NCBI RefSeq assembly: GCF_006345805.1
Contig: NW_021832922.1
Coordinates: 1 to 29,248, forward strand
DNA: 29,248 nucleotides
DNA from: Octopus sinensis
Taxonomy: Eukaryota
Reading direction: 5' to 3'
The position numbers were made by a program, and so were the translations under genes. Below the pieces are notes generated by a model. It searched no databases and had not been told where the DNA came from. It saw only the letters and a program-made list of their open reading frames with translations. Shown piece by piece: positions 19,044-28,884 of the stretch; position 1 is the stretch's first letter; each line of letters opens with the position of its first letter.

Positions 19044-19396
19044 GACAAATGTATTTTGAGTATAGAACGTACTTTAAGAATCGGAGCACTTACAAGTAGA
19101 GAATTTCAGGTAGAGCTCTTCGTGCCTTGGTTGGCAACTCATCCAGTGGCGGTACCAAATAGTCTGATATACAAGTCAATGAGAGACTCACTATGTGGCC
19201 AGTCGATATGATAGATTTAGCAAACCTACCTCAAATCCAACTCTGTTTTCATTAACAAAAATCGAGGCGGTCTCAACTGGAACGCTATTGAACATAGATC
19301 TAACAATACAGTTATATATTTAAGACATGAGAAATTATTTACATTATTTATTTTATTTACATTTGACAGATATTTGTCCTCATCTTGTTTGTTGAT

Positions 19397-19442
19397 AACA
19401 CAACGTTTCGGCTGATATACCCTCCAGACTTCATCAGGTGCC
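19397..19442 (-). ncRNA. Minimal type I hammerhead ribozyme motif (one stem II mismatch)
   Basis: Reverse complement GGCAC-CUGAUGA-A-GUCUG-loop-CAGCC-GAAA-CGUU-GUGUU. Confidence 0.65.
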
Positions 19443-19444
19443 CA

Positions 19445-19520
19445 CGTACATATGGTATAGTGGTTAAGAGTACGGGCTACTAACCCCAAGATTCCGAGTT
19501 CGATTCCAGGCAGTGACCTG
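19445..19520 (+). promoter_or_regulatory. tRNA-derived Pol III internal promoter (not a functional tRNA)
   Basis: A box tggtatagtgg 19453-19463, B box gagttcgattcc 19496-19507, partial anticodon arm ggg-ctactaa-ccc; no good acceptor stem. Confidence 0.8.
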
Positions 19521-19529
19521 AATAATAAC

Positions 19530-19588
<59 letters not shown>

Positions 19589-19827
19589 TAAGCTGTTACT
19601 GCCCATGTATTTTAATTTAACCTTAAAAAAAAAAATGAACGAACTATTGAGTTTGGTTTAATGGCCTACCAATGTATACTATGAGTTTCTTTACCCTAAG
19701 AGTCGGGAAGACGCTCGGCAAGAAGTGGAAGCAAATTTGAAAAAAGAAGAAAAAAAAAATAATAATAATAATAATAATGATGATGATGATGAAGATGATG
19801 ATGATGATAATGATGATAGTAATAATA

Positions 19828-19870
<43 letters not shown>

Positions 19871-19920
19871 TACATCGAAAATACCTTATGAATGAGAACC
19901 CAGGTTCGAAATTTTCCCAA

Positions 19921-19966
19921 GACACCTGAAGAAGGCTGGAGGGTATATCAGCCGAAACGTTGTGTT
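19921..19966 (+). ncRNA. Minimal type I hammerhead ribozyme motif
   Basis: GACAC-CUGAAGA-A-GGCUG-(10 nt)-CAGCC-GAAA-CGUU-GUGUU; stem I GACAC/GUGUU, stem II GGCUG/CAGCC, palindromic ACGU in place of stem III. Confidence 0.78.
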
Positions 19967-20136
19967 AACAACAAACATGATGAGGACAAATATCCGTCAA
20001 ATGTAAATAATGTAAATAATAGATCTAGTACTCAGGGCAGAGCTTGGTCTAAACAACGTCATCACCCTCTTCAACTCACCATGAAACCAATAATTAACTA
20101 TTATCGACATTCTGATCACCACTTGACCAATAATAT

Positions 20137-20713: not shown

Positions 20714-20954
20714 GTAAAGATAACCTGCCAACATAACATGACAGTCCTTGTTTAGGACGAATGTTGCTGTAGTTTAGCCCCAGGAGACATCGTCTCCAGC
20801 TCGCTATACGACACGATCTGTGTCCTAGTTCGAAAAATATAAGGACACAGATCGTGTCGTATAACCAGCTGGAGACGATGTCACCTGGGGCTAAATTACA
20901 GCAACATTCGTACTAAACAAGGACTGCCATGTTATGTTGGCAGGTGATCTTTAC
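20714..20954. mobile_element. Near-perfect fold-back (113-bp arms, 15-nt spacer), MITE-like
   Basis: 20714-20826 against the reverse complement of 20842-20954 shows 7 mismatches and no indels. Confidence 0.9.
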
Positions 20955-22490: not shown

Positions 22491-22901
22491 GGGAAAGTGA
22501 GAGAGACAGACAGACAGAGACAGAAACAGAGGGATGGGCAGAGACAGACAATGAGAGTGGCCAGTAAGGCGCCTGTAGTTCTCCCACCTGTCTGTTGTGT
22601 CCCTGCAACATTGCTGTTCACGCTATGAATGAATGATCCACATTCGTGGTCACGGCATATTTAGGGTGTAACTCAGTTTCGCACCTCTCCTTGAAAAACG
22701 CATTTTTTGAAAAACACTTTTCAGATCCCTACGTTTTAGAAGTCGAGATTACGAATATGCAAAGAAAAAAAAAAGAAAAATCTTTTTTATCCACCCACCC
22801 ACCCCACTTAAAATTTCGAACTTTTTCGAAATTTTTTCTTCTCAATGTTTTAGACGGAAATTCCAAATATACGTTTCCAAAATTTTAAATTCAATAAGCA
22901 T

Positions 22902-23051
22902 ATTATTTACATTATTTACAATTGACGAATATTTGTCCTCATCTTCTTTGTTGTTAACACAACGTTTCGGCTGATATACCCTCCAGCCTTCATCAGGTGT
23001 CTTGGGGAAATTTCGAACCTGGGTTCTCATTCATAAGGTATTTTCGATGTA

Positions 23052-23096
<45 letters not shown>
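22902..23096 (-). mobile_element. Family D, 5'-truncated (AAT linker plus 3' module)
   Basis: Near-identical to the reverse complement of 19860-20020. Confidence 0.88.
22956..23001 (-). ncRNA. Minimal type I hammerhead ribozyme motif with canonical CUGAUGA core
   Basis: Reverse complement GACAC-CUGAUGA-A-GGCUG-GAGGGUAUAU-CAGCC-GAAA-CGUU-GUGUU. Confidence 0.8.
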
Positions 23097-28320: not shown

Positions 28321-28488
28321 TACATTATTTACATTTGACGGATATTTGTCCTCATCTTCTTTGTTGTTAATTCTCTCGCAGCCTTCATCAGGTGTCTAGG
28401 GGAAATTTCGAAGCTGGGTTCTCATTCCAAGGTAGTTTTTCGATGTTGTTATTATTATTATTATTATTTATTATTATTATTATTATTA

Positions 28489-28523
<35 letters not shown>

Positions 28524-28565
28524 CATTATTATTATATATTATTATTATTATTATTATTATTATTA

Positions 28566-28620
<55 letters not shown>

Positions 28621-28736
28621 ATCATCCAGGTCACTGCCTGGAATCGAACTGCGTTTACAACAAACAAGATGGGGACAAACATCCGTCAAATGTAAATAAT
28701 ATACATAATTTTTCGTCTCTTAAATATAGAACTGTA
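28321..28736 (-). mobile_element. Family D second composite copy with inverted 3' end; ribozyme partly deleted
   Basis: 3' module 28321-28445, (TAT)n, tRNA 3' part 28627-28650, inverted 3' end plus tail 28655-28736. Confidence 0.85.
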
Positions 28737-28884
28737 TAATAACATTAATTCCGTAGAAATTAAATAAACGCTGAATTAACCAGTTACCCCCACCCAAAGA
28801 ATTTAATCATACGGACTTCATAAATGTCCTTTTGATAATTACTCATTTCCATACTAAAAAAGAATAATGCTAAAATTAATAAAC

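What the first reader, a model, noticed from the sequence alone, without database searches (positions are those of the whole stretch)
19294..19442. Penelope-style integration signature: inverted 3'-end copy with an extra tail, whole unit inside one TSD
The 5' side of the element is an inverted copy of its own 3' module. It extends ~28 nt (ttctcatgtcttaaatatataactgta on the minus strand) beyond where the direct copies stop at tgtaaataat. The sequence atagatcta flanks the entire composite. The interrupted host is a family E repeat (about 19185-19305 resuming at about 20020-20060), which supports a single insertion event. Inverted truncated pLTRs with a short tail extension are an established PLE hallmark.
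Basis: partly seen in the sequence, partly recalled or inferred. Interest (0 to 1): 0.8.

Follow-up and report, generated by a model that had tools for sequence, protein, structure and literature searches.

The report
Penelope retrotransposon pair with tRNA-like head
This is a head-to-head pair of truncated ends of a Penelope-type retrotransposon inside one 9-base target duplication, a known signature; across the genome almost every such pair has exactly one long and one short end, and the element's terminal repeat begins with a tRNA-like sequence that may act as its promoter.

Summary
ATAGATCTA flanks a head-to-head pair of 5'-truncated ends of a Penelope/Poseidon-type element (PLE), set in an older repeat that reads through with one copy of the 9-mer. 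I found the autonomous parent (RT plus C-terminal GIY-YIG); the repeated module is its pLTR and ORF start, with a minimal hammerhead motif. Three corrections: the tail is 38-40 nt, not ~28; 19593-19757 is a LINE fragment nested in the (AAT)n tract, likely a second event; and the tail is not a property of the inverted copy. In 89 position-ordered loci, 39 of 41 classifiable pairs had one long and one short end and none had two long ends; the long end sat on the more complete half 18 times and the less complete half 20 times. Inverted pLTRs, tail and TSD are published PLE hallmarks. I did not find in print a tRNA-derived A/B-box head inside an autonomous PLE's pLTR, where 37 of 80 copy 5' ends pile up. 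Likely mechanism: both cut target strands prime reverse transcription, one at each of two adjacent start sites. Pol III transcription is an untested possibility.

The parts
19252..19302 (+). Left part of the interrupted older host repeat (weaker match from about 19221)
   Evidence: profile alignment across the empty site
19294..19302 (+). Target site duplication, left copy (ATAGATCTA)
19303..19342 (-). Tail: 38-40 nt of ORF 5' sequence (about +130 to +167/169 from the ATG) present only on this arm; the long end
   Evidence: continues in frame into the ORF in L252, L256, L257
19343..19440 (-). Inverted, 5'-truncated arm (ORF +32 to +129) with a minimal hammerhead motif at 19397-19440 that has a stem II mismatch
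19439..19520 (+). tRNA-derived head of the pLTR: starts at -7 (19439), tRNA +1 at 19446, A-box-like 19453-19463, B-box-like 19496-19507; TG at 19439-19440 is shared with the inverted arm
   Evidence: sequence; head of a sister copy aligns from +1 to genuine tRNA genes above all 200 shuffles; not called by ARAGORN or Rfam
19521..19591 (+). (AAT)n tract of the pLTR, 5' part
   Evidence: present between head and module in sister copies
19593..19757 (+). 3' end of another retroelement, a LINE with zinc-knuckle and restriction-enzyme-like motifs (R4/Dong-like by recalled motifs), nested in the (AAT)n tract
   Evidence: 86-90% to the sequence right after the ORF stop of longer copies in L085/L231, L018, L277; Pfam gave only zf-RVT below cut-off
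19758..19870 (+). (AAT/GAT)n tract, 3' part
19871..20020 (+). Direct arm: pLTR module with the ORF start codon at 19892 and a minimal hammerhead motif at 19921-19966; stops at about +127 to +129, the short end
20019..20027 (+). Target site duplication, right copy; first 2 nt shared with the element end
20028..20066 (+). Host repeat resumes

Best explanation
The two arms are head-to-head, 5'-truncated ends of one Penelope/Poseidon-type retrotransposon inside one target duplication, likely made when the element's enzyme cut both target strands with a stagger and primed reverse transcription from each cut end. One end likely started at the distal RNA site (about +165 to +168, giving the tail) and the other at the proximal site (about +120 to +140, no tail), probably on RNA from the same source copy. 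Both cDNAs stopped early and were likely joined at a 2-nt microhomology; gap filling made the duplication. A LINE fragment likely entered the (AAT)n tract later. Shown: anatomy, parent element, two end classes, one-long-one-short rule, shared TSDs, allele sharing. Inferred: two-strand priming, coupling of site choice, order of events.
For: Ends fall in two classes, +118 to +141 and +157 to +174, with none from +142 to +156 among 98 pair ends (5 fall outside both). 39 of 41 classifiable pairs are long+short, 2 short+short, 0 long+long (binomial against independent choice p=4e-10). An exact match of 7 nt or more next to both ends in 24 of 49 pairs against 32 of 1212 swapped flanks. In 69 long+short pairs the arms share 56 minor alleles against 23 +/- 4 in permutations. 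In the window, and in 20 of 39 pairs, each arm holds sequence the other lacks. In vitro, the anole Poseidon protein cuts and extends both strands, starts at two adjacent internal sites that bound the tail, and is predicted to be a dimer (PMC11167929, parts 1-2 of 4 read).
Against: In that in vitro work the start site did not differ between strands, so the coupling is not shown there. 25 of 49 pairs fail the exact TSD test (mean divergence to column majority 5.5%, explains some). 40 of 89 loci had no partner at first; with 10 kb more, only L071, L104 and L073 gained a TSD-supported one, so pairing is not obligatory. Some diagnostic sites are discordant within pairs (position 62: 6 pairs share the minor allele, 6 differ between the two alleles), and the window's own arms differ there. 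No empty-site allele was seen.
Confidence: 0.6

Rival explanations
1. Fold-back: one cDNA starts at the distal site, snaps back on the short palindrome at the pLTR 5' boundary, copies itself to make the second arm, and is joined short of the tail; the perfect palindrome then loses its centre by asymmetric deletion.
For: Explains allele sharing and one tail per pair. Of 10 non-ORF copies that keep position -7 under a strict pattern, 8 carry a 3-10 nt inverted stub; inverted heads without a module occur (L068, L072, L074). Self-priming was inferred for rotifer PLEs (PMC3846280, passages).
Against: Needs large one-sided deletions where the short-ended arm holds the whole ORF and the tailed arm under 200 nt plus head (L260, L264). 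Lone short-ended copies are as common as lone long-ended ones (21 and 19). Some within-pair discordance remains.
Confidence: 0.27
2. Two independent insertions side by side, the 9-mer being chance.
For: PLE copies tend to insert next to each other (PMC6765202, passage); both ends are AT-rich.
Against: Cannot give 39 of 41 long+short, the TSD excess or the allele sharing; the host repeat reads through with one 9-mer.
Confidence: 0.03
3. The tail is made after synthesis, by endonuclease resolution or trimming of one end of an intermediate, not by a second start site.
For: Proposed in PMC8557442 (passages). Short ends spread over about 24 nt, as trimming would give.
Against: Part of that spread comes from the variable 9-nt repeat; the in vitro start sites match the genomic ends in the anole element.
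Confidence: 0.1

Closest known systems
Penelope/Poseidon-clade PLEs (Drosophila virilis Penelope; Anolis Poseidon PAc; Adineta Pen2/Pen2a)
   Same: One ORF with RT and C-terminal GIY-YIG; pLTR overlapping the ORF start; hammerhead near the ATG; inverted 5'-truncated pLTR; 30-40 nt tail often at one end; 8-10 bp TSD around the whole unit (PMC3846280, PMC8557442, PMC11167929).
   Different: The pLTR here is a tRNA-like head plus (AAT)n directly after the ORF stop. Reported promoters are Pol II-type (internal DPE-type in D. virilis, PMC2377424 passages; TATA/Inr-like in Adineta). The one-long-one-short rule is described there in words, not counted, in the passages I read.
Schistosoma Sm-alpha / Sj-alpha SINE-like elements
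   Same: A Pol III-type promoter followed by a hammerhead (PMC6765202, passage).
   Different: Those are short non-coding repeats; here the head is part of a protein-coding PLE unit and is followed by the module in 28 of 30 head-anchored loci.
TRIMp3 elements (Cassandra, Helenus, Ajax)
   Same: Small-RNA-derived promoter inside a terminal repeat (PMC10886601, passages).
   Different: LTR-type and non-autonomous; that paper expects autonomous partners to need Pol II.
L1 twin priming
   Same: Both target strands prime; inversion inside one TSD.
   Different: In L1 the two cDNAs cover different parts of one RNA; here both arms cover the same ~100 nt and start at two fixed internal sites.

Membership tests
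EN+ PLE, Penelope/Poseidon type | Single ORF with RT and C-terminal GIY-YIG endonuclease | tested here: met
   RVT_1 over cut-off in L269 (35.4 bits), below it in L254, L259, L261; C-terminal piece L260 had no Pfam hit but matches GIY-YIG/HTH_animal clusters at 0.97 and 13 homologues at 53-66%, 12 with PF26215. No unbroken full ORF among 20 long copies (longest open stretch 401 aa).
EN+ PLE, Penelope/Poseidon type | pLTR that includes the ORF start; tandem pLTR-ORF-pLTR units | tested here: met
   Module reads in frame through the tail into the ORF; units in L252, L254, L255, L259
EN+ PLE, Penelope/Poseidon type | Optional 30-40 nt tail and inverted 5'-truncated pLTR | tested here: met
EN+ PLE, Penelope/Poseidon type | Short TSD around the whole unit | tested here: met
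   24 of 49 pairs, 7-14 nt maximal match; window 7-9 nt
EN+ PLE, Penelope/Poseidon type | Minimal type I hammerhead motif in the pLTR | tested here: met
   Core boxes, extra base before G10.1-C11.1 and palindromic 15.2-16.2 as described in PMC4209133 (passages); the predicted fold of 19915-19968 gives stems I and II, though not better than shuffles (z -0.96); no Rfam hit; cleavage untested
EN+ PLE, Penelope/Poseidon type | RT groups with the Penelope/Poseidon clade in a tree | not tested
   No named reference RTs in hand; clade assigned from domain order and recalled motif shape, which differ from the other GIY-YIG families sampled
tRNA-derived SINE (SINE2) | tRNA-related head with A and B boxes | tested here: met
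   Aligns from +1 over 67-71 nt to tRNA-Ala(TGC) and tRNA-Arg(TCT) genes above 200 shuffles; only six amino-acid types sampled, isotype unresolved
tRNA-derived SINE (SINE2) | Free-standing non-autonomous unit, separate from its autonomous partner | tested here: not met
   The head lies about 35 nt after the ORF stop in ORF-bearing copies and is followed by the module in 28 of 30 loci; short copies are truncations of the same unit
tRNA-derived SINE (SINE2) | Pol III transcription | not testable with these tools
   Indirect only: 5' end pile-up, scarcity of T4 runs
Non-LTR retrozyme | Head-to-tail tandem monomers each with a hammerhead | tested here: not met
   Neighbouring modules are head-to-head in 49 of 89 loci; no tandem arrays of the short unit seen; definition from bioRxiv 10.64898/2026.07.22.740005, part 1 of 5

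The most novel reading that the evidence does not exclude
An autonomous, protein-coding Penelope element whose whole unit is transcribed by RNA polymerase III from a tRNA-derived promoter built into its pLTR, so that it is its own SINE, and whose dimeric enzyme primes both target strands on one RNA at two fixed sites, one each.
Probability: 0.25. Interest if true: 0.8.

Novelty: new variant of a known kind. Interest (0 to 1): 0.47.

Why it matters
How PLEs make their inverted structures and tail is stated to be unresolved (PMC8557442). This family offers thousands of short, countable products (3,996 exact matches to one 24-mer), and the near-strict one-long-one-short rule is a constraint any mechanism must meet and that the existing in vitro system can test. 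A tRNA-derived head in the pLTR of an autonomous PLE would, if it is a working Pol III promoter, go against the expectation that protein-coding retroelements need Pol II. It also means that many copies which look like tRNA SINEs are PLE ends, and that each pair is a built-in inverted repeat.

Tried and rejected
Random 100-kb blocks held one module in 200 kb, too few to sample. Rfam and ARAGORN found neither hammerhead nor tRNA in the element. The 15 best GIY-YIG Pfam hits were other PLE families or non-PLE genes without this module. One search was wasted: the query was a DNA transposon nested in the L104 ORF. 'PLE-mobilised free SINE' was my first reading and was dropped once the head was found fixed behind the ORF stop. 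T4 scarcity was weakened by controls: 14 runs seen against 39 expected in 14 ORF copies, none shared by more than 2 copies, and other PLE families have about 9 per 2.3 kb, but no single stretch was significant against synonymous shuffles (best p=0.06) and this ORF has half their Phe content. Sequencing runs: no RNA holder listed; all four runs laid were contigs; X3, X4, X5 run from the flank into the tail and X9 did not cover the flank, so no empty site. Three look-ups in earlier findings returned nothing. Literature searches for a tRNA head or Pol III promoter in a PLE gave 0, 17 (judged from listings, one read in passages), 0 and 2 papers; Penelope with twin priming gave 3 unrelated listings. 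Repbase, Dfam and most subscription papers could not be searched, and no supplements were read, so the family may already be catalogued. PMC5785218 was not held.

Full report
Observation. The window is contig C9393 of a 2.72-Gb animal genome; its repeats look octopus-like to me, which is recalled and not tested. ATAGATCTA occurs only at 19294 and 20019, and 19343-19440 is an inverted copy of 19923-20020 at 93%. Against a natural read-through copy the inverted arm extends 38 nt past the direct arm without gaps; runs X4 and X5 read T at 19304, which extends the match by 2 nt to the TSD. The tail is therefore 38-40 nt. The flanks belong to an old repeat: single-sequence searches were weak, but a profile with 44 hits aligns across the empty site with no net gap for one 9-mer and a 9-column insertion for two. 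Contigs of X3, X4 and X5 run from the left flank into the tail, so the left junction is shared by these samples and no empty allele was seen.

What lies between the arms. After a 2-nt overlap comes a 5'-extended tRNA-like head (19439-19520), an (AAT)n tract, 165 nt matching the 3' end of a different LINE, more (AAT/GAT)n, and the direct module. The LINE piece follows the ORF stop of longer copies, and in L085 a 2.1-kb copy sits in the same tract. The truncation points differ between loci, so I infer separate, later insertions. Its R4/Dong label rests on recalled motifs; Pfam gave only a sub-threshold zinc-binding hit.

The parent element. Seven lone copies had the end of a PLE ORF upstream. 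A search with the ORF 5' part gave 225 candidates and 40 matches; 20 were fetched at 9 kb. The unit is ORF stop, about 35 nt, head, (AAT)n, ATG, hammerhead motif, short end, long end, rest of ORF. The module is thus pLTR plus the first 43-56 codons, and the tail is ORF sequence, as in Adineta Pen2a and anole PAc. RT is supported by Pfam, the C-terminal GIY-YIG by feature look-alikes and homologues. All 20 copies are broken.

Unbiased test. A 24-nt pattern inside the module, independent of tail and orientation, has 3,996 exact matches. I used the first 92 of the 100 listed, all on C1; they make 89 loci after merging L081 with L080, two matches in L134, and dropping L099 as a duplicate of L098. 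49 are head-to-head pairs and 40 lone. Among pairs, 39 are long+short, 2 short+short, 0 long+long, 8 have an unclassifiable end. Reading the odd ones by eye: L059 is long+short split by a SINE; L088 may be a long end with a deletion; L129 looks short+short; L134 is a complex duplication; L110 was mis-paired and is a direct copy with its own 12-nt duplication. Ends cluster at +118 to +141 and +157 to +174. Exact duplications of 7-14 nt lie next to both ends in 24 of 49 pairs and 32 of 1212 swapped controls. Lone copies are 19 long and 21 short; 10 kb more sequence gave TSD-supported partners for L071 and L104, a 12-nt remnant for L073, and unsupported distant ones for L058 and L065. The tailed arm reaches further 5' in 18 pairs, the other in 20, 1 tie. 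In 69 pooled long+short pairs, some from similarity-biased loci, arms share minor alleles 56 times against 23 +/- 4; same RNA, same source locus and gene conversion are not separated by this.

Mechanism. The simplest reading is a staggered double cut with priming from both ends, one at each start site, then joining of the two truncated cDNAs. The in vitro PAc data supply two-strand extension and two start sites but not the coupling. Fold-back with later central deletion remains a real rival: short inverted stubs at the head boundary show that snap-back occurs (8 of 10 non-ORF copies caught by a strict pattern).

The head. It aligns from +1 to real tRNA genes of this genome above all shuffles, does not fold as a tRNA, and has 2,659 exact matches to a 23-mer; 28 of the first 30 are followed by the module. 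Of 80 aligned head or spacer copies, 37 have their 5' end between -10 and +1 or at the palindromic junction there, 29 within +2 to +51, none in the 43 nt upstream, and 14 further into the ORF. The full unit L259 starts exactly at +1. This fits an RNA 5' end at the head, as a Pol III start would give. A weak hairpin at the same place (-7.3 kcal/mol) could instead stop RT or let two cDNAs anneal. T4 runs are scarce on the sense strand, but the controls leave this as a hint only. There are no RNA data.

Comparison and verdict. Inverted pLTR, tail at either or only one end, and TSD are published (PMC8557442, PMC3846280: passages; PMC11167929: first half of the text). Pol III promoter plus hammerhead is known for Schistosoma Sm-alpha (PMC6765202, passage) and tRNA-like LTRs for non-autonomous TRIMs (PMC10886601, passages). 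Octopus repeat surveys list Penelope and Dong-R4 as abundant but the passages I saw describe no such structure (PMC13282606, PMC8967140). My searches found no tRNA-headed autonomous PLE, with Repbase and Dfam unchecked. The finding as written is a known hallmark. The counted one-long-one-short rule and the tRNA-derived pLTR make it a new variant of moderate interest.

Noticed in passing
window 28321-28740: A second head-to-head pair of the same family: short end at left, tailed end at right, partial head, imperfect duplication near both ends.
   Followed up: partly
window 22901-23096 (-): A lone short-ended copy, truncated in the (AAT)n tract, 97% like the direct arm over 192 nt.
   Followed up: partly
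window 20714-20954: A 113-nt inverted repeat, 94% complementary, 15-nt spacer; MITE-like or fold-back; related sequence flanks L055.
   Followed up: no
L085/L231, L071, L087, L106, L130: Several LINE families, and a further abundant repeat, insert into the (AAT)n tract of this PLE's pLTR and push the two arms apart by up to several kb.
   Followed up: partly
L134:2143-5984: An inverted duplication that includes flanking host DNA, followed by a further tailed module; suggests copying ran past the element end.
   Followed up: no
L332-L344, L142-L156: Other GIY-YIG PLE families with open frames up to 883 aa; no A/B-box head within 500 nt downstream in the 12 tested; hammerhead-like motifs in L145, L150, L156.
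   Followed up: partly
L104/L157: A mariner-like DNA transposon (label recalled) of about 1.3 kb interrupts the PLE ORF; 2,537 candidates in the genome, the best at 96-97% identity.
   Followed up: no
L101:3799-4433: Four tandem copies of the same LINE 3' fragment separated by (AAT)n.
   Followed up: no
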